A stretch of DNA of 32,000 nucleotides from Candidatus Saccharimonadota bacterium (GTDB lineage: Bacteria; Patescibacteriota; Gracilibacteria; UBA4473): the NCBI GenBank assembly GCA_963677105.1, contig OY781871.1:390001-422000 (forward strand), given 5' to 3'. Below are positions 1,874-32,000 of this stretch, one piece after another. Numbering within the stretch: the stretch's first letter is position 1; every line of letters begins with the position of its first letter. The translations under genes and the position numbers were made by a program. A model generated the notes under the pieces. That model made no database searches, was not told the DNA's origin, and was given only the letters and a program-made list of their open reading frames with translations.

Positions 1874-1938
1874 TCTTCCTAAAACATTCTTCCACTTCTC
1901 TTTTTTTTAATACCTTTTCGCTCGCAAAGACAACACTA

Positions 1939-1974
1939 TTTGTAGTTTGTGATTTTAAGCGAAGCGATTATTTC
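1939..1974 (+). repeat. heptamer array A with conserved tail
   Basis: TTTGTAG TTTGTGA TTTTAAG CGAAGCGA T TATTTC. The tail overlaps the glmS stop codon (TTA at 1968-1970 on +). Contains GCGAAGC at 1959-1965. Confidence 0.8.
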
Positions 1975-7254: not shown

Positions 7255-7307
7255 TTTGATCTTTGTACTTTGATATTTGTAATTTTGAGTAAAGCGACAA
7301 TTTGCAC
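7255..7307 (+). repeat. heptamer array B with conserved tail
   Basis: TTTGATC TTTGTAC TTTGATA TTTGTAA TTTTGAG TAAAGCGA C AA TTTGCAC. Located between the MBL RNase gene and rpmB. Confidence 0.8.
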
Positions 7308-7354
7308 TTGACTGAAATCAAATCATAAGTACTCTCCGTCTGAATTTTTAGAAA
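7308..7354 (+). promoter_or_regulatory. candidate rpmB promoter plus conserved leader motif
   Basis: TTGACT (7308-7313), 16-nt spacer, TACTCT (7330-7335), then ATTTTTAGAAA (7344-7354). Superimposable on the rpsP upstream region. Confidence 0.4.
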
Positions 7355-7759: not shown

Positions 7760-8199
7760 TGCGTCTTATCGTACTAGATAACATACGATCGCTCCACAAT
7801 GTTGGAGCGATTTTTCGTACTGCTGATGGCGCCGGTTGGGACAAAATTTATCTTACTGGATACACTGGATGTCCACCTGACAGAAGAATTGAAAAAGTTT
7901 CTCTTGGCGCAGAAGAATTTCTCTCGTGGGAACAAGCTGATTCAGCAATAGAGTTATGCAAAAAGTTGAAAAAAGATGGATTTAAAATTGTTGCACTTGA
8001 ACAATCTGAAAAATCTGAAAATATTTTTGATACACACGATTTTGGTGAAAATATTGCACTTATTTTAGGAAATGAAGTTGAAGGAGTATCTCAAGAATTA
8101 TTAGATATATGTGATCAACACGTGGAAATTCCCATGTATGGTCAAAAAAAATCGCTCAATGTTTCTGTTGCAGCTGGAATCGCTTTATTTGCGCTTTGA
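7759..8199 (+). CDS. SpoU/TrmH family RNA 2'-O-methyltransferase
   Basis: Motifs NVGAIFRTADGAG, LILGNEVEGVS and IPMYGQKKSLNVSVAAGIALF. The start overlaps the rpmB stop (TAATG). Ends with TGA. Confidence 0.8.
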   Translation: MRLIVLDNIRSLHNVGAIFRTADGAGWDKIYLTGYTGCPPDRRIEKVSLGAEEFLSWEQADSAIELCKKLKKDGFKIVALEQSEKSENIFDTHDFGENIALILGNEVEGVSQELLDICDQHVEIPMYGQKKSLNVSVAAGIALFAL

Positions 8200-8251
8200 A
8201 GAGAAAAAACTAGAAACTTCGGTCTGCAATCTACAAATAAGGAATTTTTTA

Positions 8252-8293
8252 TTTGCACTTTGATCTTTGTATATTGAACTTTGATATTTGTAT
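8252..8293 (+). repeat. heptamer array C
   Basis: TTTGCAC TTTGATC TTTGTAT ATTGAAC TTTGATA TTTGTAT, upstream of aspS. Confidence 0.8.
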
Positions 8294-10106: not shown

Positions 10107-10125
10107 CAAAGAGCAAAAATCAAAA

Positions 10126-10188
10126 TTTGCACTTTGTACTCTGTACATTGATATTTGATATTTGTATATTGTTATTTGTACTTTGCTC
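10126..10188 (+). repeat. heptamer array D (longest, 9 units)
   Basis: TTTGCAC TTTGTAC TCTGTAC ATTGATA TTTGATA TTTGTAT ATTGTTA TTTGTAC TTTGCTC, between aspS and der. Confidence 0.85.
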
Positions 10189-11624: not shown

Positions 11625-11641
11625 AAAAAATTTTTATTTCC
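11617..11641. terminator. AT-rich hairpin between convergent der and recF
   Basis: GGAAATAAAAA-AAA-TTTTTATTTCC is a perfect 11-bp inverted repeat overlapping the der stop (11622-11624). The stem is weak (AT-rich), so function is uncertain. Confidence 0.3.
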
Positions 11642-11677
11642 TTGAAACCACAATTTTCAAAGTTCAAATTTTGCTCT

Positions 11678-12769
11678 CTACTCTTTGTTATTTGATAAAT
11701 CAAATATCTGAACTTCTTCCTGAGCAAACGCGGAAAAGTGCTCTATGTGTGTCGTACTAAAAAACACTTGTGAATCAACACATAATTTTTCTAATGCTGC
11801 TTGACGAACTGAATCAAGTTCAGAAAAACAGTCATCCAATAGCAAAATCGGCGGAACTCCACTGTGAGAAGATAGAATTTGTTTTTGTGCTGCAAGTAAT
11901 GCTAATAAAACTGATCGTTCTTCTCCACGACTTGCTGTGGAAATCAGCGGACGATTTCGAAGACGAAACACAAAATCATCACGATGTGGTCCTAAAAAAC
12001 TTTTTCGTGCTGCACATTCGCGTTGAAAATTTTCAGAAAAAAACTGACGAACTCCGTCTTCTGTCGGTTCATATTCTTCAGGAGTTTGTAACTCCACTGA
12101 AATGGAATCTGAGGAGTGAGAAATCTCTGTTAATTGCTGCTGAAATGGATCGGATAAAGATTGAAGGAACTCCGTTCGTTCTTTCCAAATATCTGGAATT
12201 ACGTTCGCAAGAATTTCATTCCATGGTTGTAAATCTTGAGTTCGAACTTGAGAAATAACTCTTCCACTTAAGTTCGAACTCGACTCTCTCAATAACGCAT
12301 TTTTTTGTCGTGTCGCTTTATCTGCACGAGAAAGATTCTCTCTATAAATGGGAGAAAGTTGAGATAATACACGATCAAAAAACTGTTGTCGTGCGCGTTT
12401 CGCCCCAGAAAAAAGCGATAAATGTTCTGGCGCAAATAACAAAGTAGGAATTTGTCCAAAAAATTTCTTTCGAGTTATTTTTTTCTCGTTTCGTATAAAT
12501 GCTCTTCCTCGTGGCTGAATCTGAATTTTAAATTGATCACCCGAACCCAAGATTGCTTGAATCTGAGCTGAATCTGCTCCATTACGAATCAAGTCAGAAG
12601 AAATAGTTTCTCTCCAGCTTTTCCCTACACTCAAGAGTGAAATCGCTTCTAACACATTCGTTTTCCCTCGTCCGTTCCCACCAACAAGCACTACAATATT
12701 TTTTTCAAATTCAAAAACTCGCTCTTTATAATTGCGAAAATCATGAAGGATGAGCGTTCGTAAAGTCAT
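11678..12769 (-). CDS. recF: DNA replication and repair protein RecF
   Basis: 363 aa with Walker A GGNGRGKTNVLEAISLL, QKNALLRE and the Walker B-like ILLLDDCFSELD. Confidence 0.9.
   Translation of the reverse strand: MTLRTLILHDFRNYKERVFEFEKNIVVLVGGNGRGKTNVLEAISLLSVGKSWRETISSDLIRNGADSAQIQAILGSGDQFKIQIQPRGRAFIRNEKKITRKKFFGQIPTLLFAPEHLSLFSGAKRARQQFFDRVLSQLSPIYRENLSRADKATRQKNALLRESSSNLSGRVISQVRTQDLQPWNEILANVIPDIWKERTEFLQSLSDPFQQQLTEISHSSDSISVELQTPEEYEPTEDGVRQFFSENFQRECAARKSFLGPHRDDFVFRLRNRPLISTASRGEERSVLLALLAAQKQILSSHSGVPPILLLDDCFSELDSVRQAALEKLCVDSQVFFSTTHIEHFSAFAQEEVQIFDLSNNKE
12239..12280. repeat. palindrome doublet AGTTCGAACT x2 inside recF coding sequence
   Basis: Perfect 10-bp palindromes at 12239-12248 and 12271-12280, 32 nt start to start. 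Confidence 0.9.
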
Positions 12770-12789
12770 CGATCATATTTTAACACTTG

Positions 12790-12833
12790 AGTTCGAACTT
12801 GTCTTGTTCCTATTTTCTTTTCAAGTTCGAACT
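12790..12833. repeat. palindrome doublet AGTTCGAACT x2 in the recF/transposase spacer
   Basis: Copies at 12790-12799 and 12824-12833, 34 nt start to start. The second touches the transposase stop codon (12833-12835). Confidence 0.9.
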
Positions 12834-13372
12834 TATTCAAACCCCGGATCAAATTCAGGATCTAATCCAATAGCTTCAATTATTGGAAATTCATTTGTCG
12901 ATGTTCCCCCTGCCCAAACCCATTCTTCCACATTTTCAACTATTTCATGTTTCAACGCATTATAACGAATATAATATGCCACTTTTTGTAAATAATTTTC
13001 ACTTATAATTTCTTTTGAATTAAAACGTCCTTCAAAAATAGGAGCCTTTTGTCCTTTTTTAACAGAATCACCATATTTTCTATTAAAATACATAGCATAC
13101 GATTGCTGAATTTTTTGCATAAACTTTGAAATTTGTGACGCTTCTCCGGCCTCTAAGTTCGAACTTGATATGTCCTCCGATAACAAAAAATGAAAATGAT
13201 TTGGTAAAAAACACCAAACATAAATTTTGATTGTTGGAAATTTTAAGAGATAACGCTTTATTGTGTCCCCAAACCGTATTAAATCTTGATCACAAAAAAA
13301 CAATCTTTGTTTGTTACATCCTCTATTATAAATATGATAATAAATACCTTTTTTAAAATTTCTCTTTTGCAT
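12833..13372 (-). CDS. IS200-like HUH/Y1 transposase, REP-associated tyrosine transposase (RAYT)-like
   Basis: 179 aa: GIYYHIYNRGCNKQRLF..., HUH-type motif PNHFHFLL, C-terminal YYIRYNALKHEI with a candidate catalytic Tyr. It is a single gene without IS terminal structures but is surrounded by short palindromes. Confidence 0.75.
   Translation of the reverse strand: MQKRNFKKGIYYHIYNRGCNKQRLFFCDQDLIRFGDTIKRYLLKFPTIKIYVWCFLPNHFHFLLSEDISSSNLEAGEASQISKFMQKIQQSYAMYFNRKYGDSVKKGQKAPIFEGRFNSKEIISENYLQKVAYYIRYNALKHEIVENVEEWVWAGGTSTNEFPIIEAIGLDPEFDPGFE
13156..13165. repeat. AGTTCGAACT palindrome inside the transposase gene
   Basis: Perfect copy, read as tca AGT TCG AAC TTa (SSSNL) in the transposase frame. 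Confidence 0.9.
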
Positions 13373-13458
13373 TTTAGGAACTTAGAAACCTACCCAAAAC
13401 ACTAATAAAAATAAGAAAAACAACAAACATCCTTTTTCATAAAACTTTAATACAAACA

Positions 13459-13468
13459 AGTTCGAACT
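13459..13468. repeat. AGTTCGAACT palindrome upstream of the transposase gene
   Basis: Perfect copy in the spacer between the transposase start and the SLH-gene terminator. Confidence 0.9.
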
Positions 13469-13483
13469 TAAATTAAATAATAA

Positions 13484-16500: not shown

Positions 16501-17567
16501 AAGTCTCCTACAACATTCATAGCAGTAGATGCTACGTCATCAGCAGAAACCAAAGCCAATCGGTTGTGGTGTCCAATGTTTTTGTCAGAAGAAGTGTATT
16601 TTGCTGAAGCTACAACGTCAGCAACCAAAGTTTGTCCCGCAGGAGTTACTAATGGTGGGTTGAAACGTAATTCAACTACGTCATCGTTGTTAATTGATTT
16701 GTCGTTTCCTACTTTGAAACCATCAATTTCCATCCATACGTTTTTGAAGTCGTCGTTGTCACCAAGACCAAGACGTGTGAAAGTCAATGAAGAAATCTCA
16801 ACGTCTGCGTCGTCTGATGCAGTCAACTCAATAGTAGTATAAGGAACTGAAGTAGCATTGTATGGAACGTTTGTTCCACGTGGTGTTTCTTCTGAAAGCA
16901 TAACTTCCAATGTTCCTTCTGCTGGTCCGTCTGGGATAGATACTGCTAACAAACCGTCGTAAACGATTTTTGCAGTCTCAGCACGGTTAACTGGTTTACT
17001 TGCTCCGAATGTTCCGTCAGCGTAACCACGCATAAGATCGTAGTTGTATGCTGTTTCAACATATTCGAAGAACCAGTCACCTGATGTTACGTCATCGAAG
17101 TGAGGAGCACCTGTTGTGTCCAAGTCAAGTTCGAGAGCGTTAATCACCATTTTTGCCAACTCAGCACGGTTGATTCCGTTACCAGGACGGAAAGTTCCGT
17201 CAGGGTTACCATCAATCCATCCGTAGTTGTACATTGTTTCTACGTAGTCGTAGTACCATGCGTCTTCTTCAACGTCTGGAAAGTGTGCCCCTCCAGTTGT
17301 GTCGAAATCAACACCTGATGCCAATGTAATAATTTTCGCTACCTCTGCACGATTTAATTGTCGTGCTGGTGCAAAAGAACCGTCTGCGTTACCTCCAAGC
17401 ACGTCTAAAGCGACAAGCTCTTCAATAGCTTCAACAGCCCATGTTGGGATCTCGTTTACATCTGTGAAGTCCAAGCTTGCGAATGCCAATGATGGAATCA
17501 TTGTAAACGCCATAGCTGAAACTGCCAATGCTGCGATTCCCTTTTTAAAATGAGACAAAATAGTCAT
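13584..17567 (-). CDS. S-layer-type surface protein with three N-terminal SLH domains (1327 aa)
   Basis: Start set at the ATG at 17567 (MTILSHFKKGIAALAVSAMAFTMIPSLAFA, signal-peptide-like); the track's GTG extension to 17642 is unlikely. Three SLH repeats: FTDVNEIPTWAVEAIEEL...NRAEVAKII, FPDVEEDAWYYDYVETMY...NRAELAKMV, FDDVTSGDWFFEYVETAY...NRAETAKIV. The rest is Thr/Ala/Val/Asp-rich and looks beta-rich. Confidence 0.85.
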   Translation of the reverse strand: MTILSHFKKGIAALAVSAMAFTMIPSLAFASLDFTDVNEIPTWAVEAIEELVALDVLGGNADGSFAPARQLNRAEVAKIITLASGVDFDTTGGAHFPDVEEDAWYYDYVETMYNYGWIDGNPDGTFRPGNGINRAELAKMVINALELDLDTTGAPHFDDVTSGDWFFEYVETAYNYDLMRGYADGTFGASKPVNRAETAKIVYDGLLAVSIPDGPAEGTLEVMLSEETPRGTNVPYNATSVPYTTIELTASDDADVEISSLTFTRLGLGDNDDFKNVWMEIDGFKVGNDKSINNDDVVELRFNPPLVTPAGQTLVADVVASAKYTSSDKNIGHHNRLALVSADDVASTAMNVVGDFPIEGEEMEVADYQVSEVDFSDLGSDTTIDVGDNFIEIGKFRMLNESSTNKDVEIRAITFKNDGTAELENVLENVALYVSGEQVSAESIIDGDYITFRLDNGVTGGYIIEDGDSRIFSMRADIVSAEKGDTINFKIDNFEDLVAIEIGTAFGVKATSDSFLTTTTTGTTTTGGTCSNSDAEDNCARLKMYTIDSGDINVSRDPSSLGNQQYAPGSNDIVAMTARVIVDQPLLVDGVTLTSVYTGTANVGVLVANSATANHLIGANAAFNNYRLFLNDNLIDSENAMVANTTDVLGTAKLEYDTTFEIAGASILKLVLNIQDAAPTGSTIKFNLASSSFSSPEYISTGDQVPTDQLLGSAQGSLVEVTASALTITKTDGFSSETIVAGLDDVTFMEFVLDNNDSGDVNVTSITVDADDSVGSIGNAANYTAAIFVDGAQQGSSKNFNTTTEVATFNDLSVVVPSAGQKEFAVVVNTNETSSGDVLRMRITAVDADNVENGQTVYLPGGNATTPMTAVNGSTFTLVASGSLVMSIGSTIYSDILVAGADEVEVLKIRFNAADDEVQIKDLYLDNNSGSWTTFGPRADFKLYNEAGQLVQTKQMQTGDLLHFELANQDRISVPKDDSTFVTLKVDVRDITQASMTGKRLKLTTDTSEGTANGVEALTAATGTDLAAGQISGTYAGEPFVAYRTEVSVKHAATQPNFSDPSSASQEIYRFTISADAARQAEIGRVTFDVALSGMKTSADAGFVVRQVKTDGTIDNTATVTSSIVDTFTAANDIAGTVTVNFSNQRLASGESRTFALFMDNTVDTGTAADDDAVNVTISNDSAYVAPAAKAALTQTSTYTIVGTTTAASTAGTLTINGTAVSLIGVGAGANTAVADAIKALIDAASITGVTTTSAGGVVTVLGANTVVETVAFAATGLTSATLANVATQTTKTVWSDESSNAHTDSTLDWLNGYLLDTDTTSMTNAD

Positions 17568-18016
17568 CTTTTTGGGATTATAAATAAAATCTTGTGGGTT
17601 CGAATAAACAAACCCGAAACTCCTAGAAAATGAAAAACTCACCGAATAGACACCGCAAAAGTAGCGGAATCACTCAGTGTTCTTTGAAATTCTTAGGCAT
17701 ATAAAAAAGTTGAAAAAGCTCTATATAAGGGTCTTTTCTCTAGAAAAATATTCTTTTCCGGCCGCTGTTTCAAAGAACGAGTTTTTTTATTCACTATCCC
17801 TTATGGAGAGCGAGCAGAGAGCGCATTTTTGTCACAAGTCTGCCAAACCACCGATATCGTATGAATTTATGGGGAAAAGTCAACATTTTCCCTGTCTTAC
17901 GAAACCGGTCATAAAATCAAACGAAAAAACCTAGAAAACGTTACAAATAAAACGAGAAACTGGTGTTGGAATCAATAACTCCAAATTGCCTGGAGTCAAG
18001 AAAGGAATAATACAAT
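17568..18016 (-). promoter_or_regulatory. long non-coding promoter/leader region of the SLH gene
   Basis: About 450 nt without a credible ORF. Two by-eye sigma70-like candidates lie on the minus strand: TTGACT (17883..17878), 16 nt, TACGAT (17861..17856); and TTGAAA (17773..17768), 17 nt, TATTTT (17750..17745). Either implies a leader of roughly 170-290 nt. Confidence 0.35.
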
Positions 18017-18020
18017 ATGT

Positions 18021-18062
18021 TTTGTCCTTTGTACTTTGAAGTTTGTAATTTGAAAATTGAAC
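18021..18062 (+). repeat. heptamer array E
   Basis: TTTGTCC TTTGTAC TTTGAAG TTTGTAA TTTGAAA ATTGAAC. It ends exactly at the stop codon (CTA, 18063-18065) of the minus-strand coiled-coil gene. Confidence 0.8.
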
Positions 18063-18575
18063 CTATTCCACAATCGTGTCTCTTAAGGCTTCAATCGCAT
18101 CAACACTGTCTCCTACGTTCTCTCTTACCTCTTGCACTGAGTCATTTAGCTCCTGTAATTGGCTTTTTGTTTCCTCGTATTGCTGTTTTACTTCTGCGAT
18201 TTCTTTTTCAATTTCTGCCTTCTTTTGCTCAAATGATCTCCTTTTTTCATCTATTTTTTGCTGAAACTGAAACACTTCTTCCTCAATTGATTCGTTTTTC
18301 TCTTCTAATTTCACCTTTATTTCGTTGAATTCTTCTTCTATTTGAAGTTTTCTTTTTTTATATTCCTCTTCTATGGTGTCGTATTTTTCGAGTAAAAAGT
18401 TCTTGCGCACAGAGAACAAGGATTCTTCAATTGCTCCCACATCACCGCCTGTCATTTCGGCAACTTTTTTTTGTATTCGTAGCGACCAAATATCCCATTC
18501 ATCTGGATGTTTTATATATACCCACGACAAAAAACAAATTCCGCTGATTAATAATGCTGCGATAAATCGTTTCAT
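18063..18575 (-). CDS. membrane-anchored coiled-coil protein (170 aa)
   Basis: N-terminal hydrophobic anchor (FIAALLISGICFLSWVYI) followed by a long E/K-rich heptad-like region. The start overlaps the upstream stop (ATGA). Confidence 0.55.
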   Translation of the reverse strand: MKRFIAALLISGICFLSWVYIKHPDEWDIWSLRIQKKVAEMTGGDVGAIEESLFSVRKNFLLEKYDTIEEEYKKRKLQIEEEFNEIKVKLEEKNESIEEEVFQFQQKIDEKRRSFEQKKAEIEKEIAEVKQQYEETKSQLQELNDSVQEVRENVGDSVDAIEALRDTIVE

Positions 18576-20836: not shown

Positions 20837-20955
20837 TACTTACTTTTTAGAACTTTTTTATATTTTTGTCAACATATTTAAGAAGAGATAATTCACAATC
20901 ATTTGACAACATTTGCAAACAGGAATACTCATGTACACGATTTGATATTTTTGAA

Positions 20956-21165
20956 ATGGAAAACCAATGTTCAATAGAACCAGAAAAAGAATGTATTGGT
21001 GCTCAAGAGTGTAAGAAAAAAGCATTGAAAGCAGTTCAAAACATTCATTCTGTTTGTGATATCGAGCCAGGAAAATTAATAAAATATTTCCATAAACAAG
21101 AAATGAAACTCATCCAAGTGGAGCGCGATAAAATTAAATGTGCCAATGAAAAATTGCAAAAATAA
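20956..21165 (+). CDS. small Cys-containing protein, tandem paralog 1 (69 aa)
   Basis: MENQCSIEPEKECIGAQEC...KIKCANEKLQK. The ATG at 20956 lies within the track ORF 20866..21165. Candidate promoter: TTGACA (20903-20908), 17 nt, TACTCA (20926-20931). Confidence 0.55.
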   Translation: MENQCSIEPEKECIGAQECKKKALKAVQNIHSVCDIEPGKLIKYFHKQEMKLIQVERDKIKCANEKLQK

Positions 21166-21192
21166 TAATTTCAATTATTTAATCTAAAACCA

Positions 21193-21410
21193 ATGACAGA
21201 TTGTGAAAATGGTATCGGTGCGGAAAAATGTAAACAAGAAAATTCTAGAAAACTTACCGATCTTGAAGAGTTTAAAAAAATAAAGAGAAGTTAGGAATAA
21301 TTCTAGACGAAACTTCCCAAGCAGTTCTTGAAAAAATAGAGACTAAAACCGCTCAAGTAATTCAAAAAAAAGTGGCTTGCGCCAATCGTAAAATAGAAGA
21401 AAAACAATAA
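21193..21410 (+). pseudogene. small Cys-containing protein, tandem paralog 2, frame broken at an A7 run
   Basis: ATG at 21193 gives MTDCENGIGAEKCKQENSRKLTDLEEFKK, then a stop at 21292-21294. The -1 frame from 21279 continues NKEKLGIILDETSQAVLEKIETKTAQVIQKKVACANRKIEEKQ to the stop at 21408-21410, restoring the family C-terminus. The shift site is AAAAAAA at 21274-21280. Confidence 0.45.
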
Positions 21411-21434
21411 TTTTAATTATTTAATCCCAAACCC

Positions 21435-21632
21435 ATGTCAGAAAAATGTACAATCGATCCTGAAAAAGAATGTATTGGAGCAAAAGACTGTGGATATACA
21501 AATCGCAGAAATATTGAAGAGACTCAACTTACCGCACTTGGGTTGAACTCTTGTTTGCAAGAAACAAAAGATCATATGATTGATGAATATCGAAAAAAAG
21601 TAGCATGTGCAACTGAAAAGTGTGCAAAATAA
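21435..21632 (+). CDS. small Cys-containing protein, tandem paralog 3 (65 aa)
   Basis: MSEKCTIDPEKECIGAKDC...KKVACATEKCAK. The N-terminal 19 aa are nearly identical to paralog 1. The upstream spacer matches that of paralog 2. Confidence 0.55.
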   Translation: MSEKCTIDPEKECIGAKDCGYTNRRNIEETQLTALGLNSCLQETKDHMIDEYRKKVACATEKCAK

Positions 21633-21633
21633 A

Positions 21634-21704
21634 TTTGTAGTTTGCCGTTTGTAAATTGAAGTTTGTTATTTGTTCTTTGATATTTGGAGCGAAACGACTA
21701 TTCT
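21634..21704 (+). repeat. heptamer array F with conserved tail
   Basis: TTTGTAG TTTGCCG TTTGTAA ATTGAAG TTTGTTA TTTGTTC TTTGATA TTTGGAG CGAAACGA C TATTCT. TTGATA (21677-21682), 16 nt, TATTCT (21699-21704) is a promoter-like arrangement for the M16 gene. Confidence 0.8.
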
Positions 21705-23439: not shown

Positions 23440-23474
23440 AGAAAAATACATTTTCACTCGCAATAACAACATTA

Positions 23475-23530
23475 TTTGTACTTTGCCCTTTGTAATTTGA
23501 TATTTTAAGCGAAGCACCTATTTCCACAAT
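23475..23530 (+). repeat. heptamer array G with conserved tail
   Basis: TTTGTAC TTTGCCC TTTGTAA TTTGATA TTTTAAG CGAAGCAC C TATTTC CACAAT. The tail runs through the stop codon (CTA, 23518-23520) of the minus-strand gene. GCGAAGC is at 23509-23515. Confidence 0.8.
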
Positions 23531-25609: not shown

Positions 25610-28600
25610 ATGAATTTCCTAAAATATAAAAAACAATCTTGGTGGAAGGAGATATTGTGTCTCCAAAAGATTGTTGCGACCATTCTTATTATTAGTTTTT
25701 CTGCTGGATTGGTGCACTCTGACATTGATTTAGATGGAATTCCAGATGAGACCGATCCGTTTCCAGAAACAGCTGTCCAATCTCCACAAATTCTTTCTCC
25801 CACAGAAGATGAAGTTATATACGCTCCTTCTCGAGAAGTTATTTTTACCGGAACTGCAGAAGCCGGAAGTCAGATTAAATTATTTGAAGATGGAGTTTCT
25901 CAAGAACTTTCTTGCCAAGAACCAAATGCAGAAAATGTTCAAGGAACGGGACTTTTGGTGTCTAGCACTACTGGAAACAGTAGCGTTGATCAAGTTGGGC
26001 TACTAAACGGACAATCCGTCGTTGCACAAACATTTTATAATACAAATGCCGACTCTGTGTCCACAACATGGCGCAACAGCACAACTACATCTTGGGCAAC
26101 GGAAACCATTGATGATGCTATTGATGGAATCTGTGATTATCAAGCCGGTGGTTCTCCTGAAGATCGATGTGGAGATGTAGCGTTTCCCGAGCAAGTAATT
26201 ATATTATCAACTGCGGATCGAGTGTATTTGTTTGACGCACAACTTCGAACGTTTTGGAAAAGTCTGCCTGTTTCTAATGCAACTTCTGTTTCTGCAGAAA
26301 ACGGAATTATTTTTGTAGGAACTAGTACGGGAACTCTCGTATGGGATTTTGCAAATGATGATTTCTCACGTACTTTCACAAGTGAACTTCCGGCTGGAGC
26401 TGTTGTTTCTCTCGATACCGTTGCTGTTGGATCAACTCAATATCTTCTCGTTGCAACGACTGGTGGAGCTGCTGTTATAAATTTAACGACTGATGCAGTA
26501 CTAACTTCTCTCGACTCTGGATCTCTTGTAGGAGCAGCATTTACATCGTCTAATCGTATTTTGTGGGCAACAGCAACAGAAGTATTCGTTTCGGATGACG
26601 CTGTAGACTTACTGGCAAATAATTGGACGAGTACTGATATATCAAATACTGCACGCTTTCCCTTTGATTCTCCTGGAACGGTAACCGCTATTTCCTCTGA
26701 TTTAATCGGATTAACAACTGGAGTTACGCGCGTATTCGACGACGGAAATGGCAATATTTTAATTCAATACGTAACTCGTAATTCAACAACATTGCCTCTT
26801 GGATTAGCTTCTCGTGGACATTGGCTAGAAACAGATGCTTCTGAGTCAATTGACGTAAGTATCGCAGAAAAAGATTTAGATAATAATTTGACAGTAACGT
26901 CCGTTCCTGCAGCAACAGGAACGGACTTAAGCGTTTTTGAATTCGGTGGAACTAACCGTTATCTAGAAAGTAAAAATAATACTGACTTTTCTGTAACGGG
27001 AAATCATTTGACTGTTGGAGCATGGGTTCGTCGTCCTGATTTTGGAGGAACTGGACCGTTTAAAAAATTAATGTCTCATGGAGATGGTTCGGCAAGTGAT
27101 GAATGGGACTATTGGCTCTCTGCTGGAGAAAACTTTTTCGATTACGGACTGAACGCAGATCCATATTTCTTCGGGATGCGAACTTCTGAAGGCGAACGTG
27201 GTGCTGTTGCTTTCACCTTTGCTTTAAACACGTGGCAACTTCTTGTAGGAACATATGACGGAGATGCTGGAGAATTAAAAATTTACTTAGACGGAGTTGA
27301 ACAAGATCAAAATATTTTTCTTCCTGGAATAAATCCTGTTTCTCTTTCTGGTGATATTGCCTCGGTGGAAAAAGTACTTCGTCTCGGATGGGGATATAAT
27401 ACAGAATATTTTAACGGAGACATGGCACTTCCGTTTATTACAGCTGAAACATATTCTTCTGAACAAGTCGCATTGCTTCATCGTTACTCAAACGGATGGT
27501 TTGCCGAAGACACAAAAACTACTCTCCGGGGAACATCTGATGCCGTTGTTGATGTGACTTGTGACGATGCGCATAAAGAATGTTTTGTGTTAACAGATGA
27601 TGGAACTGTGACACGTATTGATGGAAATTTATTCGCTGGGGGAGTAACCTCTGAAGTCGCAAATGTGACTGATGTTGCAAAAATTACTCCAACATATCTC
27701 GGAACATGGCAATGTACACATTCGTTTGATACCAGTGGAGAATATACTATTTCTGCAAAAACATATTGGAATGATGGTCCAACGACAATCAATTCTTTGC
27801 CTCGAACTTTCACCGTATTTTCACAAGCAGAACAAACGCTGGAAGCTCCAGAAATACTTGCTTTCCCTGATGAATTTATTGCACATGACACAGCCACTGT
27901 TCTGTGGAGTACGGATGAAACCGATGAAGACTATTTTGTCGCTCAAGTCGCAACTGATCCCGGATTTCAGATTGGACTTCGTCAACAAATTTCTCAAGGA
28001 CATTCTGCTCGTTTTGATGCGCTGGACGACACCCAGCAATATTATTTTCGAGTGAAGGCACAAAACAATTTTGGTGGAATTTCAGATTGGTCAGAAATTA
28101 TTACGACAACTGTTGATACATCTGCACCAACTGATGGCATTATTGAAAATACCGATGGAAGATTTTCTTCTGATACAGAAATTGGATTTTCATGGGAAAC
28201 GAATCCTTTTTCAGATTTAGGCGCGGGAATTATTTGGTACGACTTAGAAATAAGCAAAGACCAAACATTTGTTGATGAAGATCAGCGAGTGTTTAAAAAT
28301 GATCGTCTCATTGCCACCAGTTACACATTTACCGGAGAAACAGGAGAAACGTACTTCGCACGAGTTCGTGCAATGGACGCTGTTGGAAATTGGTCTTCTT
28401 GGGCAGAAAGTTCTGGAACACTCATTGATACAACGGCACCGGAAGACTTTTCGTTAGCATCAATTTCTACAACTGCTGATAATGAAATTCGTCTTCGATG
28501 GACCCCATCTTCTGATGCAGAAACTGGAATTGAAGAATACGAAATATGGCAAAAAGATAATGCTGGTGATTTCACTCTTCTGGAAACAGTTAGACCAGAA

Positions 28601-31600
28601 ATACGTTCTCATAAAGTCACTGCACTTCAAGACACTCATACATATATTTTTAAAATTGTTGCCCAAAATGGTGCCGATCTTTCTACGGAAACGGGCGAAC
28701 AAAGTGTTATTATAAATGATTCTCTCTCCTCTGCGCCACAGCTACTCAGTTCTTCGTATTCAAGTTCTACAAACGTTTCTCTTGAGTGGACGGAAGATTC
28801 TGATCTTTCAACCGCTACGCAATATCAAATTTTTAGAAACGATGCTTTTCTTGGATCTGTAGATATAAGCGAAACAACATTTGTCGATCCAGACACGCAT
28901 TCTTCTGGAGAAGTTTTTGCATATAAAGTACGAACCTTTCGTCCTGCAGCAGGAGAAGAACTGGAAGCTTTTGGAGATTTTTCCCCAGAATTAAATATTT
29001 TGATTGATAACACAGATCCTTCTCTTGATACTTTTGAAATACTTGGACCAACGCCGGTAAACGATTGGCGAAACAGAAACTTTTCTCTTCAATTATTTGG
29101 TACCGATGGAACTCCTGTTTTTGATCCTACAACATCAACAGGAAATGGATTTTCAGCTGGACTCGATAATGTGTTTTTCAGAGAAGGAACGTCTGGAGAT
29201 TTTGGATTACACAATGTCCCAATCCTTCTTACTGATTCAGGAATTCATGATTTTCAATTTAAGTTTCAAGATCGTGCTGGAAATGAAACTGACCCACCAA
29301 GCAATATTGCTGACATAAAATTGGATAAAATTGCTCCAACAATATCTATTGCACAAAGTTCTGTTTCTGATTCCGTTTTCACTGAAAAGAATGGATTTAT
29401 TTCTACAAACACACTGCAATATGAAATAACGGCAACTGATGGAAATTCTGGAATTGACGCAACAACCTATGAGATTTCATATCGATTAGACAAAAATGGA
29501 GACGGATTTTTCCGTACAGATGATGGCGATATTCTGTGGACATCTTGGTCTTCGTCAAACGCAAATGATACGCTTACTGTTCCTGACGATGGAATAATGG
29601 AACTCCGATCAGCAGTAACAGATCTTGCCGGAAACCGAAATATTTCGGATATTTTGGTAGTAAAAATTGATCGTCAATCACCATTTATTTCTTCAGATGC
29701 TCCGACACAACCAATTGCTTCTGACACAATTGTGCAAATAAATGTTGCTGATGTTTCTGCCGTTTCTTCTGGAAAAGAAACTGTATATTATACAAAAAAT
29801 GGCGCTGATCCCAAAACTGCTCTTTTCCCAATTCTTCATGAGGGAACAACTGTATTTATTGATCAAAGTGTTGATGCTCCTGGAGGATTATTTACAATAA
29901 AATATTATGCCGTAGATGCGGTTGGAAATGAAAGCGAAACACATGTTGCAACAAATGACATAACAGATAGCGACAGTGATGGACTTCCCGATTGGTGGGA
30001 AACTCTCTACGGCGGAACAGTTGATCCAACGTCTGATACTGATGTTGATGGATTAACAGCAGAACAGGAATTTAATTTAAAAACAAATCCTACGCTTTCT
30101 GATTCTGATAGAGATGGTGTGCTCGATGGAGAAGAAAATACCGCTGGAACAGATCCTTTAAACGGAACTGATCACAAATTTCAATGGATTTCTCCAGCAG
30201 ATTCATCAACCATTAAATCTACTTTTACGATTGCTGGAACAGCAACTCCTGGATCTGTAGCTGAAGTTTTTGACACTACAACAAGCACTTCTTTAGGAAC
30301 AGCAACGGTTGATCCGTATGGAAGATTTTCTATGGAAGTGTTTGAACTTGAAAATGGAAACCATTCGTTAAAAGTGGAATTCCAGCATCCAGAAAACCCT
30401 CTCGCCGTTATTGAAAGTGATTTGCAAAACATAACTGTAAACGAAACAACTGGAACACAGCCACAAATTACTAATATTTCTGATGACGACGAAGTCGGTC
30501 CTTCTACTTCGCGAGTGCTTGTTTCAAATGTTTCAGCAAACTCTCCTGTTGAACTATTCGAAATTATCGACAATGTGACATATTCTCTTGGAACAGCTAA
30601 CACATCGTCTGAAGGAACAGCTGATATTTGGCTTCCACGTCGATCTGAAGAACGTCGAATCTTTGTTCTCGATCATTCTACATGGAAAACGTCTGAAATT
30701 GTTCAATTTGAACAAGGAGTATTTATTGAAGGAATCATATTTGATGAAGATTTACAACCTTTAGAAGATGCGACAATTGAACTCACTGATTCTCTCGACT
30801 CATCCACAAGTGTTCAGACAATAGAAAATGGAACCTACCAAATATTTGCTCGAACGAATCAAACCTATACTTTTCGAGTAGAAGCAGACGGATTTTATCC
30901 AGAAGAACAGGTTGTAATAACGGCGTTTGATGATATTCGATTAAACAAAACACTCATTGAAATGAACCGAATAGTAACAGTAGGAGGAGTCGTTTCTGAT
31001 TCCGAAGGAACTCCGTTAAAAGACGTTGAAATAGTCTTAACAGCTGATTCGACGGAATTTCCTACAACCACAAATATTGATGGAACGTATTCGATACTTG
31101 TTCCTGCCAGTAAAACATATGATGCAATATTCTCACTTGTTACATATGACACTCATTCTCAGTCTATAGAAGTAAATCGTCACAACGTTGAAGTGAATGT
31201 TACGTTGGTCGAACAAGGTTCTTCCGTTGCTGTTTCTGGACGAACGTGGTCGTTAACAACTGATTCTCCTCTTGCTGGTGTTTCAGCCACTTTTATTTCT
31301 AATCAAAACGAATATTTTCAAACACAATCTGACGGCTCAGGAAATTTTGCACTCGCTTTACTCCGTGATCGAGAATATGTAGCTACATTCAGTCGTCAAT
31401 GGTATGACGATGTTTCTATTACTTTCCAAGTTGGATCGGATGCAACCGTCCTTCCCGATATTGAAATGACTGCCTTTTATGCAGAAGCTGCAAAACGTGG
31501 ATGGTCAGGACGTCGTTTGGACGATCCCGCAGATTCTATTTCTGATGACTGGATTCCTGTAATGACGTACGAAGAATCGTTAGAACAAATAGAGCGATTG

Positions 31601-32000
31601 AATGCGGGAATTGCTGGACAAATTAAGACGCGCGAACAACACGGAGAAGAAAAATTTGCTGGATATATTTCAGGACGAATTGCTGTCGATGACTTTTACC
31701 GAAAAGATGATTCATTGAGACTTGGATTAAGTGGTTTTAGCGAACGAATTAAACAGCAACATGCTTCTGCAAAAATTGGATATTGTCTTGAGTTCAAAGA
31801 CACAACAATGGCGTTCCGTGATGTTCCTGTTCGAAGTCGCGAATATACTGCTATTGCGAAAGTGTACAGTTTGGGACAAATGTCACTCGATGAAACATTT
31901 AAATTCCGTCCTACAGAAATGATTACATGGGAAACAGCGCTCGAAATGGCATTTTCTGTGAGTTGTAGTCAACCCGACTCATTCGATCTTTTACAGTCTT
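25610..32000 (+). CDS. giant secreted multidomain surface protein (over 2130 aa, 3' end beyond window)
   Basis: Not in the ORF track. TAA at 25607-25609 is followed in frame by ATG at 25610, and I read no stop through 31999; every track ORF on + in this interval is in another frame. The N-terminus MNFLKYKKQSWWKEILCLQKIVATILIISFSAGLVHS is signal-like. By-eye domains: Asp-rich Ca-binding-type motifs (DIDLDGIPDETDPF; DSDSDGLPDWWE, DTDVDGLTAEQE and DSDRDGVLDGEE around 29960-30170); a LamG/ConA-like block (~26930-27500: HLTVGAWVRR...TWQLLVGTYDGDAGELKIYLDG); about four FN3-like modules (~27840-28990: YYFRVKAQNNFGGISDWS, TYFARVRAMDAVGNWSSW, EIRLRWTPS...YEIW); CarboxypepD_reg-like beta-sandwich repeats (~30715-31440: GVVSDSEGTPLKDVEIVL...TNIDGTYSILV); and a starting SLH domain (FRDVPVRSREYTAIAKVYSLGQMSLDETFKFRPTEMITWETALEMAF, ~31800-32000). 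Confidence 0.85.
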   Translation, partial: MNFLKYKKQSWWKEILCLQKIVATILIISFSAGLVHSDIDLDGIPDETDPFPETAVQSPQILSPTEDEVIYAPSREVIFTGTAEAGSQIKLFEDGVSQELSCQEPNAENVQGTGLLVSSTTGNSSVDQVGLLNGQSVVAQTFYNTNADSVSTTWRNSTTTSWATETIDDAIDGICDYQAGGSPEDRCGDVAFPEQVIILSTADRVYLFDAQLRTFWKSLPVSNATSVSAENGIIFVGTSTGTLVWDFANDDFSRTFTSELPAGAVVSLDTVAVGSTQYLLVATTGGAAVINLTTDAVLTSLDSGSLVGAAFTSSNRILWATATEVFVSDDAVDLLANNWTSTDISNTARFPFDSPGTVTAISSDLIGLTTGVTRVFDDGNGNILIQYVTRNSTTLPLGLASRGHWLETDASESIDVSIAEKDLDNNLTVTSVPAATGTDLSVFEFGGTNRYLESKNNTDFSVTGNHLTVGAWVRRPDFGGTGPFKKLMSHGDGSASDEWDYWLSAGENFFDYGLNADPYFFGMRTSEGERGAVAFTFALNTWQLLVGTYDGDAGELKIYLDGVEQDQNIFLPGINPVSLSGDIASVEKVLRLGWGYNTEYFNGDMALPFITAETYSSEQVALLHRYSNGWFAEDTKTTLRGTSDAVVDVTCDDAHKECFVLTDDGTVTRIDGNLFAGGVTSEVANVTDVAKITPTYLGTWQCTHSFDTSGEYTISAKTYWNDGPTTINSLPRTFTVFSQAEQTLEAPEILAFPDEFIAHDTATVLWSTDETDEDYFVAQVATDPGFQIGLRQQISQGHSARFDALDDTQQYYFRVKAQNNFGGISDWSEIITTTVDTSAPTDGIIENTDGRFSSDTEIGFSWETNPFSDLGAGIIWYDLEISKDQTFVDEDQRVFKNDRLIATSYTFTGETGETYFARVRAMDAVGNWSSWAESSGTLIDTTAPEDFSLASISTTADNEIRLRWTPSSDAETGIEEYEIWQKDNAGDFTLLETVRPEIRSHKVTALQDTHTYIFKIVAQNGADLSTETGEQSVIINDSLSSAPQLLSSSYSSSTNVSLEWTEDSDLSTATQYQIFRNDAFLGSVDISETTFVDPDTHSSGEVFAYKVRTFRPAAGEELEAFGDFSPELNILIDNTDPSLDTFEILGPTPVNDWRNRNFSLQLFGTDGTPVFDPTTSTGNGFSAGLDNVFFREGTSGDFGLHNVPILLTDSGIHDFQFKFQDRAGNETDPPSNIADIKLDKIAPTISIAQSSVSDSVFTEKNGFISTNTLQYEITATDGNSGIDATTYEISYRLDKNGDGFFRTDDGDILWTSWSSSNANDTLTVPDDGIMELRSAVTDLAGNRNISDILVVKIDRQSPFISSDAPTQPIASDTIVQINVADVSAVSSGKETVYYTKNGADPKTALFPILHEGTTVFIDQSVDAPGGLFTIKYYAVDAVGNESETHVATNDITDSDSDGLPDWWETLYGGTVDPTSDTDVDGLTAEQEFNLKTNPTLSDSDRDGVLDGEENTAGTDPLNGTDHKFQWISPADSSTIKSTFTIAGTATPGSVAEVFDTTTSTSLGTATVDPYGRFSMEVFELENGNHSLKVEFQHPENPLAVIESDLQNITVNETTGTQPQITNISDDDEVGPSTSRVLVSNVSANSPVELFEIIDNVTYSLGTANTSSEGTADIWLPRRSEERRIFVLDHSTWKTSEIVQFEQGVFIEGIIFDEDLQPLEDATIELTDSLDSSTSVQTIENGTYQIFARTNQTYTFRVEADGFYPEEQVVITAFDDIRLNKTLIEMNRIVTVGGVVSDSEGTPLKDVEIVLTADSTEFPTTTNIDGTYSILVPASKTYDAIFSLVTYDTHSQSIEVNRHNVEVNVTLVEQGSSVAVSGRTWSLTTDSPLAGVSATFISNQNEYFQTQSDGSGNFALALLRDREYVATFSRQWYDDVSITFQVGSDATVLPDIEMTAFYAEAAKRGWSGRRLDDPADSISDDWIPVMTYEESLEQIERLNAGIAGQIKTREQHGEEKFAGYISGRIAVDDFYRKDDSLRLGLSGFSERIKQQHASAKIGYCLEFKDTTMAFRDVPVRSREYTAIAKVYSLGQMSLDETFKFRPTEMITWETALEMAFSVSCSQPDSFDLLQS

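What the first reader, a model, noticed from the sequence alone, without database searches (positions are those of the whole stretch)
23496..23530. Conserved tail module on four arrays, with a GCGAAGC mini-hairpin motif in two of them, running through stop codons
Four arrays end with the same register-conserved module. A (1946-1974): TTTGTGA TTTTAAG CGAAGCGA T TATTTC. G (23496-23524): TTTGATA TTTTAAG CGAAGCAC C TATTTC. F (21676-21704): TTTGATA TTTGGAG CGAAACGA C TATTCT. B (7276-7304): TTTGTAA TTTTGAG TAAAGCGA C AATTTG. Copies A and G contain GCGAAGC, which as d(GCGAAGC) is known to form an unusually stable DNA mini-hairpin. In A and G the TATTTC end overlaps the stop codon and last Lys codon of unrelated minus-strand genes (glmS ...TVK-TAA; the FecR-like gene ...LWK-TAG). 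Array E and array G are also followed by nearly identical gene ends read in different frames: CCTATTCCACAAT (18062-18074, ...IVE-stop) versus CCTATTTCCACAAT (23517-23530, ...LWK-stop). Inference: the repeat unit may be a larger element whose end supplies or has overwritten the 3' termini of host genes. Alternatively, read on the + strand as TTGNNN, 16 nt, TATTTC, it is an antisense promoter firing into the 3' ends of these genes.
Basis: partly seen in the sequence, partly recalled or inferred. Interest (0 to 1): 0.7.

Follow-up and report, generated by a model that had tools for sequence, protein, structure and literature searches.

The report
Strand-biased TTTG heptamer intergenic repeat family
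The "tail module" is the far end of a lineage-specific intergenic repeat built from runs of TTTG plus three variable bases; the stop codons it touches belong to the neighbouring genes, and the unexpected part is that every array lies on the same DNA strand.

Summary
The four-way tail similarity is real (about p = 0.001).

It is not a free-standing module. It is the distal end of a dispersed repeat whose core is 2-9 degenerate heptamers (TTTGNNN). The window has seven such arrays, against 0.01 expected, none in 841 kb of unrelated DNA, and 2 in 132 kb of relatives.

- **A and G:** near-identical copies of a 59-73 nt element. They also share a 30-nt head.
- **GCGAAGC:** occurs only in A and G and is not enriched in the window.
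- **Gene ends:** not supplied by the repeat for glmS, because array-less orthologs carry the identical GTGAAATAA. The same holds for the 435-aa gene, whose terminal W is conserved. It remains possible only for the 170-aa gene next to array E.
- **Antisense promoter:** poorly supported. TATTTC lacks the final T, five clear promoters of this genome read TTGACn-16/17-(T/C)AnnnT, and divergent spacers have no arrays.

Arrays sit in convergent and co-directional spacers. All 9 arrays of at least 4 units (7 here, 2 in a relative) have TTTG on the strand that third-codon GC skew marks as lagging. Between homologous copies only TTTG is kept.

Best reading: tandem protein-binding sites at the 3' flanks of lagging-strand genes. 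That function is inferred, not shown.

The parts
23496..23524 (+). Copy G of the 'tail module' (the finding): last full heptamer TTTGATA, degenerate unit TTTTAAG, segment CGAAGCAC, then C-TATTTC. The bases from 23518 on are the stop, Lys and Trp codons of the 435-aa gene on the minus strand.
23445..23517 (+). Full element G: head 23445-23474 (AATACATTTTCACTCGCAATAACAACATTA), four heptamers 23475-23502, tail 23503-23517. It fills the convergent spacer between DUF4395 (+) and the 435-aa gene (-).
   Evidence: nhmmer E = 2e-21
1909..1967 (+). Full element A: head 1909-1938, two heptamers 1939-1952, tail 1953-1967. It ends at the glmS stop codon (TTA 1968-1970).
7255..7304 (+). Array B (4 units, 7255-7282) plus tail TTTTGAG TAAAGCGAC AATTTG. 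It lies just upstream of the rpmB promoter CTTGAC-17-TACTCT (7307-7335), which is conserved in relatives that have no array.
8252..8293 (+). Array C (6 units), without the tail. Its TTGATA unit lies 17 nt upstream of TACAAT, ahead of aspS. It matches the start of array D at 37 of 43 positions.
10126..10188 (+). Array D (9 units) between aspS and der. Three inverted units (10104-10124, minus strand) lie directly before it.
11648..11668 (-). Three-unit mini-array on the opposite strand, in the der / 363-aa convergent spacer. Its head is an inverted copy of the head of D (51 nt, 76% complementary).
   Evidence: (I1)
18021..18062 (+). Array E (6 units). It abuts the stop codon (CTA 18063-18065) of the 170-aa minus-strand gene and lies in a 109-nt insertion relative to the ortholog locus L250.
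21634..21704 (+). Array F (8 units, 21634-21689) plus tail CGAAACGAC TATTCT. It starts 1 nt after the stop of a small + ORF. 21677-21704 is a sigma-70-like site (TTGATA-16-TATTCT) 26 nt upstream of the M16 peptidase ATG.

Best explanation
The module is the distal end of a lineage-specific dispersed intergenic repeat in a small (~1 Mb), 38% G+C genome. Its closest named relatives are Gracilibacteria/Peregrinibacteria-like bacteria, and it uses the standard genetic code.

**Shown**
- The core is a run of degenerate heptamers, TTTG plus three variable bases.
- The fullest version adds a degenerate unit TTTKRAG and the segment YRAARCRMY (the 'tail'). In copies A and G it also has a 30-nt head.
- Copies are related by descent: A resembles G, C resembles D, and F resembles G.
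- They occupy convergent and co-directional spacers, never divergent ones.
- They run up to the next functional sequence. That is either the stop codon of the convergent gene or a promoter. The overlapped Lys and stop codons are the genes' own.
- All arrays of at least 4 units have TTTG on the strand that third-codon GC skew marks as lagging. That places them at the 3' flanks of genes transcribed head-on to replication.

**Inferred**
- Between homologous copies only TTTG is preserved at a strict 7-nt period. The arrays are therefore most likely tandem binding sites for a protein with a 7-nt footprint, read on the transcript as (UUUGNNN)n or on single-stranded DNA.
- A cold-shock/OB-fold type protein is the concrete candidate.
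- The arrays would act at the ends of these transcription units, in termination, insulation or RNA 3'-end handling.
- The GCGAAGC hairpin motif is incidental to the A/G subfamily.
For: **The arrays are real and lineage-specific**
- Six arrays of at least 4 units, against 0.01 in shuffles and 0 in 841 kb of unrelated loci. Relatives have 2 in 108 kb and none in two further loci, L249 and L250.
- Per-position information in the units is 1.45-2.0 bits for TTTG and 0.24-0.61 bits for positions 5-7.
- Between homologous units (C/D, F/G) there is 1 difference in 36 sites at positions 1-4, against 7 in 27 at positions 5-7. Fisher p = 0.017.

**Copies are related**
- The tail similarity is significant.
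- A and G align end to end. The A/G profile also hits F, E, B and D. C and D are 86% identical.

**Position and strand**
- Arrays are present in 3 of 3 convergent spacers and 0 of 4 divergent ones, p = 0.029.
- Of the TTTGNNNTTTG matches in spacers, 21 are on + and 3 on -.
- GC3 skew per gene: minus-strand genes +0.19 to +0.61 in 9 of 10, plus-strand genes about 0. L129 gives the same split, and its 2 arrays are on its C-rich strand.

**Gene ends are ancestral**
-.

**Precedents**
- CspB binds one heptamer per protein, with consensus GTCTTTG/T (PMC1904285; reviewed in PMC4679880).
Against: - No transcript, binding or replication-origin data exist, and only 32 kb of the source genome could be read.
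- Array E has no + gene upstream.
- A 3-unit array and three inverted units lie on the other strand.
- The arrays were defined by [TA]TTG, so the high information at positions 1-4 is partly built in.
- The distribution across spacers is also what a selfish or neutral repeat would show, since it would survive only where it breaks no promoter.
- No cold-shock gene was seen in the window.
- The leading and lagging strands were inferred from GC3 skew only.
Confidence: 0.5

Rival explanations
1. Antisense promoter. TTGNNN, 16 nt, TATTTC fires into the 3' ends of glmS and the 435-aa gene.
For: - In all seven arrays a TTG unit lies 15-17 nt upstream of a TA-rich hexamer.
- Copy F is a listed promoter-like site.
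- L129b has TTGTAG-16-TATCGC running into rpsG.
Against: - TATTTC, TATTCC and AATTTG lack the last-position T. A and G fail the scan.
- Promoter-like sites are fewer than in shuffles: 26 vs 33, and 39 vs 52.
- Clear promoters of this genome read TTGACn-16/17-(T/C)AnnnT (3793, 3777-, 7307, 17883-, 25522-). No unit in the window reads TTGAC.
- The TA of the hexamer is simply the complement of the stop codon.
- With a unit every 7 nt, a 15-17 nt spacing has a 3/7 chance each time.
- A shared 6-mer in all seven flanks is not rare by chance: 1.6-8.7% of nulls.
Confidence: 0.08
2. Sense promoter accessory. The arrays are stacked -35-like or UP-like sites, or operator sites for a dsDNA-binding regulator or silencer, as with the TTTTGAT heptads of the cholera toxin promoter.
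For: - B, C, D, F and L129a lie upstream of co-oriented genes.
- C, D and F give TTGATA or TTGTAC at 16-17 nt from TACAAT, TGcTACTTT and TATTCT.
- (TTTTGAT)n is the same repeat class. It binds ToxT, ToxR and H-NS (10.1101/2021.05.14.444153).
Against: - No divergent spacer has an array (0 of 4), while all 3 convergent spacers do, and those need no promoter.
- The rpmB promoter is conserved without any array in relatives, and the array sits upstream of it.
- A, E, G and L129b point into the 3' ends of genes.
Confidence: 0.15
3. Selfish, non-autonomous repeat spread through single-stranded DNA at the replication fork (IS200/IS605-PATE or REP/RAYT-like). It would insert next to a GRAAWTWG-like target that often coincides with Lys/Glu plus stop codons.
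For: - Strict strand bias relative to the inferred replication direction.
- Read on the minus strand (the inferred lagging-strand template), every copy is preceded by a GAAATAG-like sequence. In glmS this sequence predates the repeat.
- E is a clean insertion at a stop codon.
- The copy family is confined to one genome.
- IS200/IS605 elements insert 3' of a 4-5 nt target on the lagging-strand template (PMC5027513).
Against: - No convincing subterminal hairpins. Fold z-scores are only -1.2 to -2.4.
- The stable d(GCGAAGC) form lies on the other strand and is absent from F and B.
- There are no target duplications, and the inverted ends are only 8-9 nt and imperfect.
- A heptamer-periodic interior is not known for these elements.
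- The flank motif is not significant by an agnostic test.
- No transposase could be looked for.
Confidence: 0.15
4. The element end supplied or overwrote host gene 3' termini.
For: - The E and G gene ends share ACCTATT(T)CCACAAT in different reading frames.
- The 170-aa gene loses homology to its ortholog 4 codons before the stop, next to a 109-nt insertion that carries array E.
- The head shared by D and the mini-array runs into the last codons of the 363-aa gene.
Against: - glmS: identical terminal nucleotides in array-less orthologs.
- 435-aa gene: the terminal W and the protein length are conserved.
- E rests on a single ortholog at 45% identity, where C-terminal drift is expected.
Confidence: 0.1
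5. Non-functional by-product of strand-asymmetric replication slippage, that is, decayed heptamer microsatellites.
For: - The arrays are tandem with a period of 7, are strand-biased, and are confined to spacers.
Against: - Units within an array are nearly all different: 4 of 4, 5 of 6, 8 of 9, 6 of 6, 8 of 8 and 4 of 4 distinct. Heptamer repeats found in viral contigs are near-perfect.
- Decay should hit TTTG as often as positions 5-7, and it does not.
Confidence: 0.1

Closest known systems
TTTTGAT heptad repeats of the Vibrio cholerae ctxAB promoter
   Same: Tandem 7-bp units of the same sequence class, since (TTTTGAT)n equals (TTTGATT)n. They lie upstream of a -35 element, as array B does, and serve as protein-binding sites for ToxT, ToxR and H-NS.
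   Different: The ctx units are identical to one another, occur at one locus, and vary in number between strains. Here the units are degenerate at 3 of 7 positions, there are many loci, and most arrays sit at gene 3' flanks or convergent spacers and are strand-biased.
TAACTGA intergenic heptamer direct repeats (Beggiatoaceae, cyanobacteria, Bacteroidetes; PMC4679880)
   Same: Many intergenic sets of 2-6 or more heptamers in one genome. Their function is unknown, and S1, Csp and CsrA have been proposed as single-strand binders.
   Different: Those units are exact copies and lie a few nt upstream of start codons. Here only TTTG is fixed, the arrays lie 23-81 nt from starts or at 3' ends, and heads and tails are shared between copies.
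Cyanobacterial STRR (short tandemly repeated repetitive) heptamers (from my own knowledge: Mazel et al. 1990)
   Same: Lineage-specific tandem heptamers in non-coding DNA, with no agreed function.
   Different: STRR units are near-identical and G+C-containing (for example CCCCAGT). No strand rule or terminal modules are described for them. I did not test this comparison here.
REP/BIME and IS200/IS605-derived small repeats (PMC3333891, PMC5027513)
   Same: Dispersed extragenic repeats concentrated at gene 3' ends, with an orientation bias tied to the lagging-strand template and insertion beside a short target.
   Different: Those are defined by strong palindromes. Here predicted structure is weak and the interior is heptamer-periodic.
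d(GCGAAGC) mini-hairpin (PMC13037366)
   Same: The exact heptamer occurs in copies A and G.
   Different: It is not conserved in F or B and is not enriched in the window. Nothing shows that this DNA is single-stranded.

Membership tests
Sigma-70 type promoter (antisense, copies A and G) | -10 hexamer with A at position 2 and T at position 6 | tested here: not met
   TATTTC ends in C. Neither A nor G is listed by the scan.
Sigma-70 type promoter (antisense, copies A and G) | -35 hexamer like those of the genome's own promoters, 16-18 nt upstream | tested here: inconclusive
   TTGTGA and TTGATA lie at 16 nt. Clear promoters here use TTGACn. No unit in the window reads TTGAC.
Sigma-70 type promoter (antisense, copies A and G) | A transcript starting about 7 nt downstream | not testable with these tools
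   No expression data are available.
Sigma-70 type promoter (sense, copy F) | Both hexamers at the right spacing, upstream of a gene | tested here: met
   TTGATA-16-TATTCT at 21677-21704 scores 9 of 12 and lies 26 nt before the ATG at 21731. This is a consensus match only.
Mini-hairpin d(GCGNAGC) | Motif present in all copies of the module | tested here: not met
   Present in A and G only. F has GCGAAACG and B has GTAAAGCG. The window has 5 copies against 2.4 expected.
Mini-hairpin d(GCGNAGC) | The DNA is single-stranded in vivo | not testable with these tools
   -
MITE | Terminal inverted repeats and target-site duplication | tested here: not met
   Only an imperfect 8-9 nt complementarity (TCGCTCGC against GCGAAGCGA). 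No direct repeats at the A or G boundaries.
IS200/IS605-PATE / REP | Stable subterminal hairpins | tested here: not met
   Fold z-scores are -1.2 to -2.4, with 33-47 nt loops.
IS200/IS605-PATE / REP | Orientation bias relative to replication | tested here: met
   9 of 9 arrays of at least 4 units lie on the strand inferred as lagging. The strand was inferred from GC3 skew only.
IS200/IS605-PATE / REP | Cognate Y1 transposase or RAYT in the genome | not testable with these tools
   Only 32 kb of the source genome is available. None was seen in the window (one search covers 10 ORFs only).
Simple-sequence / STRR-type heptamer repeat | Head-to-tail units of 7 nt in non-coding DNA | tested here: met
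Simple-sequence / STRR-type heptamer repeat | Units (near-)identical within an array | tested here: not met
   35 of the 37 units in arrays B-G are distinct within their own array. Viral-contig heptamer repeats show 1-2 unit types.
Intrinsic terminator | G+C-rich hairpin followed by a T run | tested here: not met
   None is predicted at A, B, C, D, F or G. L129b follows a canonical hairpin directly.
Any Rfam RNA family | Score at or above the gathering threshold | tested here: not met
   No hit in the window. Only sub-threshold chance hits near A, and none at G.
oriC / DnaA-box cluster | Enrichment of TTWTNCACA | tested here: not met
   4 matches against 6.4 expected, none at the arrays.

The most novel reading that the evidence does not exclude
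Degenerate TTTG heptamer arrays are a strand-oriented genome-architecture signal in this CPR lineage. They mark the 3' ends of transcription units that run head-on to replication. There they recruit a 7-nt-footprint single-strand binder that ends transcription, or protects the fork from head-on conflicts. Alternatively they serve as lagging-strand priming or loading sites. Either way this would be a kind of polar sequence element not described before.
Probability: 0.15. Interest if true: 0.8.

Novelty: new variant of a known kind. Interest (0 to 1): 0.5.

Why it matters
Cis-acting signals of uncultivated, host-dependent CPR bacteria are almost unknown. These arrays are dense in the window (about one per 4.5 kb), strictly periodic, and conserved in only 4 of every 7 bases. 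All of them lie on one DNA strand, the strand inferred to be lagging.

That points to an unrecognised protein-nucleic acid recognition system tied to gene ends, to replication direction, or to both.

For annotation the practical lesson is narrower. The stop codons next to these repeats are genuine, and TTG...TATTTC look-alikes at gene ends should not be called promoters.

Tried and rejected
- **Genome-collection scan** for TTTGNNNTTTTAAGCGAAGC: 116 single chance hits, none with an array.
- **Metagenome scan** for two units plus the tail: 3 chance hits. One was a 3-unit run in a 32% G+C contig with no other array.
- **Viral-contig scan** for five units: almost all hits are near-perfect microsatellites, unlike these arrays.
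- **Source genome.** The 962-kb contig could not be fetched. Exact-protein look-ups failed.
- **Genetic code 25.** I suspected it from the Gracilibacteria-like hits and rejected it. Long genes are intact under table 11 and TGA ends genes.
- **Gene-poor region at 25.5-32 kb.** It turned out to be one open frame running off the window.
- **DnaA-box / origin idea** for TTTCCACA: no enrichment.
- **Common terminal box CWATTY** after all seven arrays. It looked striking by eye, but an agnostic 6-mer test gives 1.6-8.7% by chance, and CWATTYNCAC is not enriched.
- **RNA structure.** Weak z-scores and no Rfam family.
- **Withdrawn.** My comparison of the 'aspS promoter' with relatives is void. Their neighbouring synthetase is lysS.

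Full report
**1. What is at the coordinates**

Each follows a run of heptamers that begin with TTTG. A mechanical scan finds seven such runs, all with TTTG on the + strand:

| Array | Coordinates | Units |
|---|---|---|
| A | 1939-1952 | 2 |
| B | 7255-7282 | 4 |
| C | 8252-8293 | 6 |
| D | 10126-10188 | 9 |
| E | 18021-18062 | 6 |
| F | 21634-21689 | 8 |
| G | 23475-23502 | 4 |

On the minus strand there is only one 3-unit run (11668-11648) and three inverted units next to D (10124-10104).

The arrays are real.

**2. Is the tail similarity more than chance?**

Yes. Over the 15 nt that follow the last heptamer, the four copies share 9-12 positions pairwise. The best-four sum-of-pairs score is 61, against 40.3 +/- 4.3 for random intergenic segments, and only 2 of 2000 draws reach it. 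Arrays C, D and E lack the tail.

GCGAAGC occurs only in A and G. F has GCGAAACG and B has GTAAAGCG. The window holds 5 copies on both strands against 2.4 expected. The motif does form an unusually stable DNA mini-hairpin (PMC13037366). Here, though, it is a by-product of A and G being the two closest copies, not a conserved feature of the module.

**3.

- A (1909-1967) and G (23445-23517) align from a shared 30-nt head (AATACMTTTTCRCTCGCAAWRACAACAYTA), through the heptamers, to TTTTAAGCGAAGC.
- An nhmmer profile of A and G finds F (E = 0.006), E, B and D on the + strand of the window. It finds nothing significant in 132 kb from relatives.
- Other copies are related too. C and D are identical at 37 of 43 positions, and they flank aspS as direct repeats.
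- The first three units of F and G match at 19 of 21 positions.
- The head of D and the head of the minus-strand mini-array form a 51-nt inverted repeat flanking der.

So this is a dispersed repeat family with a heptamer-periodic core.

**4. Organism, genetic code and relatives**

- The glmS protein is 100% identical to a protein on a 962-kb contig that I could not fetch. The next relatives are 84-88% identical and unnamed. Named hits at 65-68% are Candidatus Gracilibacteria and Peregrinibacteria.
- Long genes are intact under table 11, and TGA ends genes (SpoU at 8197-8199; the L250 ortholog). The organism therefore uses the standard code.
- Five syntenic loci from relatives (L117, L120, L126, L127, L128; 87 kb) have no array.
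- L129, from the same metagenome sample as L117, has two. L249 and L250 have none.
- Scans of the genome, metagenome and viral collections gave only chance hits or perfect microsatellites.

**5. Do the repeats supply gene ends?**

- **glmS: no.** The first 30 listed homologs all end in SVTVK. The array-less orthologs L127 and L128 carry the identical nucleotides ACGGTGAAATAA, and L126 has ACGGTGAAATAG. The TATTTC of copy A is therefore ancestral coding sequence.
- **435-aa gene: no.** It has no Pfam hit, so 'FecR-like' is unsupported. Sixteen of its 19 homologs are 433-437 aa long. A W lies within three residues of the end in 12 of 19, and one ends in LWKE.
- **170-aa gene next to E: open.**
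  - Its only ortholog (45% identity) diverges after LR(D/E).
  - Array E sits in a 109-nt insertion placed exactly between the stop codon and a conserved block, TGTAACG.
  - The E and G gene ends share ACCTATT(T)CCACAAT in different frames, with P about 0.001 per pair.
  - One reading is that the E copy carried a piece of the G flank with it. The evidence is thin.

**6. Promoter or not?**

- Five clear promoters in this genome read TTGACn-16/17-(T/C)AnnnT.
  - These are rpsP (3793), glmS (3777, minus strand), rpmB (CTTGAC-17-TACTCT), the S-layer gene (17883, minus strand) and PPIase (25522, minus strand).
  - The rpmB promoter is conserved in L117 and L120, and the S-layer promoter is conserved in L250.
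- Array units are TTGTAC, TTGATA, TTGTAA and the like, never TTGAC.
- The hexamers of A and G (TATTTC) lack the final T and are not listed by the scan.
- F (TTGATA-16-TATTCT, 21677-21704) and C (TTGATA-17-TACAAT) are listed, both in sense.
- Promoter-like sites are in any case fewer than in shuffles.
- With a TTG every 7 nt, a 15-17 nt spacing to any TA-rich hexamer has a 3/7 chance.
- A shared hexamer (CTATTT with at most 1 mismatch) after all seven arrays looked striking. It turns up in 1.6-8.7% of random sets, so I do not rely on it.
- The strongest argument is position. None of the 4 divergent spacers, which must contain promoters, has even two units. All 3 convergent spacers, which need no promoter, have an array. 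Fisher p = 0.029.
- At rpmB the array simply sits upstream of a promoter that relatives have without it.

**7. Where the arrays sit and which way they point**

- On the + strand, six of the seven window arrays lie downstream of a + gene:

| Array | Gene upstream on + | Distance from stop |
|---|---|---|
| A | ORF 1566-1847, with a hairpin between | 91 nt |
| B | RNase J-like gene | 34 nt |
| C | SpoU | 52 nt |
| D | aspS | 19 nt |
| F | small Cys-rich ORF | 1 nt |
| G | DUF4395 | 35 nt |

- In L129 one array follows a canonical terminator hairpin directly. The other follows a hairpin by 30 nt. E is the exception: no + gene lies upstream of it.
- Minus-strand genes lack co-oriented arrays, apart from the 3-unit run after the 363-aa gene.
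- Third-codon GC skew per gene separates the strands cleanly. In the window, 9 of 10 minus-strand genes score +0.19 to +0.61 and + genes cluster near 0. L129 shows the same split, and L117 the mirror image, as expected from its reversed orientation.
- By the usual rule (G over C on the leading strand, from established knowledge), the + strand is the lagging strand in both the window and L129. All 9 arrays of at least 4 units have TTTG on it.
- This is an inference from composition. No origin is in view.

**8. Is TTTG constrained?**

- Across 39 units, TTTG carries 1.45-2.0 bits per position and positions 5-7 carry 0.24-0.61 bits. That is partly built in by the way I defined units.
- A less circular test compares units of homologous copies (C/D and F/G). 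They differ at 1 of 36 sites in positions 1-4 and at 7 of 27 sites in positions 5-7, p = 0.017.
- Units within an array are nearly all different, unlike the near-perfect heptamer microsatellites in viral contigs.
- Recent slippage therefore does not explain the arrays. Something keeps TTTG at a 7-nt period.

**9. Mechanism**

*Shown:*
- a dispersed, lineage-specific, strand-biased repeat with a TTTG/7-nt core;
- a tail and a head shared by descent;
- location at gene 3' flanks;
- ends that abut, but do not create, the glmS and 435-aa stop codons.

*Inferred:*
- The arrays are tandem binding sites for a protein with a 7-nt footprint.
- A 7-nt step suits single-strand binders better than dsDNA binders.
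- B. subtilis CspB binds one heptamer per protein and prefers GTCTTTG/T (PMC1904285; PMC4679880). In these arrays, 16 of 39 units end in C, so where another unit follows the junction reads CTTTG.
- The RNA made from + genes would carry (UUUGNNN)n at its 3' end or between cistrons.
- I put about 0.8 on the descriptive part and about 0.25-0.3 on this particular function. The stated 0.5 is a blend of the two.

*Rivals:*
- A dsDNA operator or UP-like array, as in the ctx promoter.
- A selfish repeat moved as single-stranded DNA at the fork, as with IS200/IS605 relatives. Their strand bias and target-adjacent insertion fit, but their defining hairpins are missing.

**10. Comparison with what is known, and novelty**

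The closest precedents are:
- the ctxAB TTTTGAT heptads;
- the TAACTGA intergenic heptamers of Beggiatoaceae, cyanobacteria and Bacteroidetes;
- cyanobacterial STRRs;
- REP/BIME-type repeats.

None of them combines degenerate units (4 fixed bases of 7), shared head and tail modules, 3'-flank location and a single-strand orientation rule. Two full-text searches on intergenic heptamer repeats in CPR, Patescibacteria or Peregrinibacteria genomes returned no relevant paper.

I rate it a new variant of a known kind. The specific finding (tail module, mini-hairpin, gene ends) is mostly ordinary once explained. The strand rule and the TTTG-only conservation are the parts worth following up.

Noticed in passing
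window 17567-17883 (minus strand); L250 10590-10920: A leader of about 290 nt runs from the promoter TTGACT-16-TACGAT to the ATG (MTIL...) of the 1327-aa SLH-domain (S-layer-like) gene. It is roughly 85% identical between the window and L250 by eye on the alignment, while the neighbouring 170-aa protein is only 45% identical. No Rfam family matches. It may be a structured 5' UTR.
   Followed up: partly
window 12776-12802 and 13456-13482: The 12-nt palindrome AAGTTCGAACTT occurs on both sides of the 179-aa gene (12833-13372, minus strand). It could be an operator pair or another small repeat.
   Followed up: no
window 20866-21632 (+): Three tandem small ORFs (99, 33 and 65 aa) share Cys-rich motifs (C-x-I-[ED]-P-E-K-E-C-I-G-A). 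Segments repeat at 242 and 479 nt spacing. They look like recently duplicated small secreted-peptide genes. Array F starts 1 nt after the last stop.
   Followed up: partly
window about 26003-32000 (+): One reading frame is free of stop codons for 6 kb and runs off the window. It is a giant gene that the ORF list omits, which made the region look gene-poor.
   Followed up: yes
window about 11612-11636: A perfect A/T-rich hairpin, GGAAATAAAAA-AAA-TTTTTATTTCC, lies over the der stop codon in the convergent spacer, next to the minus-strand mini-array.
   Followed up: no
window 8251-8293 / 10125-10167; 10086-10136 / 11658-11708: Arrays C and D are direct repeats (37 of 43) flanking aspS. A 51-nt inverted repeat flanks der and extends into the last codons of aspS and of the 363-aa gene in different frames. 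In relatives, SpoU is followed by other genes (RadC, PrgI/TraC-like), so the arrays sit at synteny breaks.
   Followed up: partly
window, L129, L117 (all genes): Third-codon GC skew differs by about 0.2-0.45 between genes on the two strands. rpsP and rpmB lie on the strand inferred as lagging, which is unusual for ribosomal protein genes.
   Followed up: partly
L117 282-1793, L120 1637-3187, L126 822-2330: The class II tRNA synthetase next to the PrgI/TraC-like genes in relatives is lysS, not aspS. It is followed by canonical G+C-rich terminators, which are scarce in the window.
   Followed up: yes
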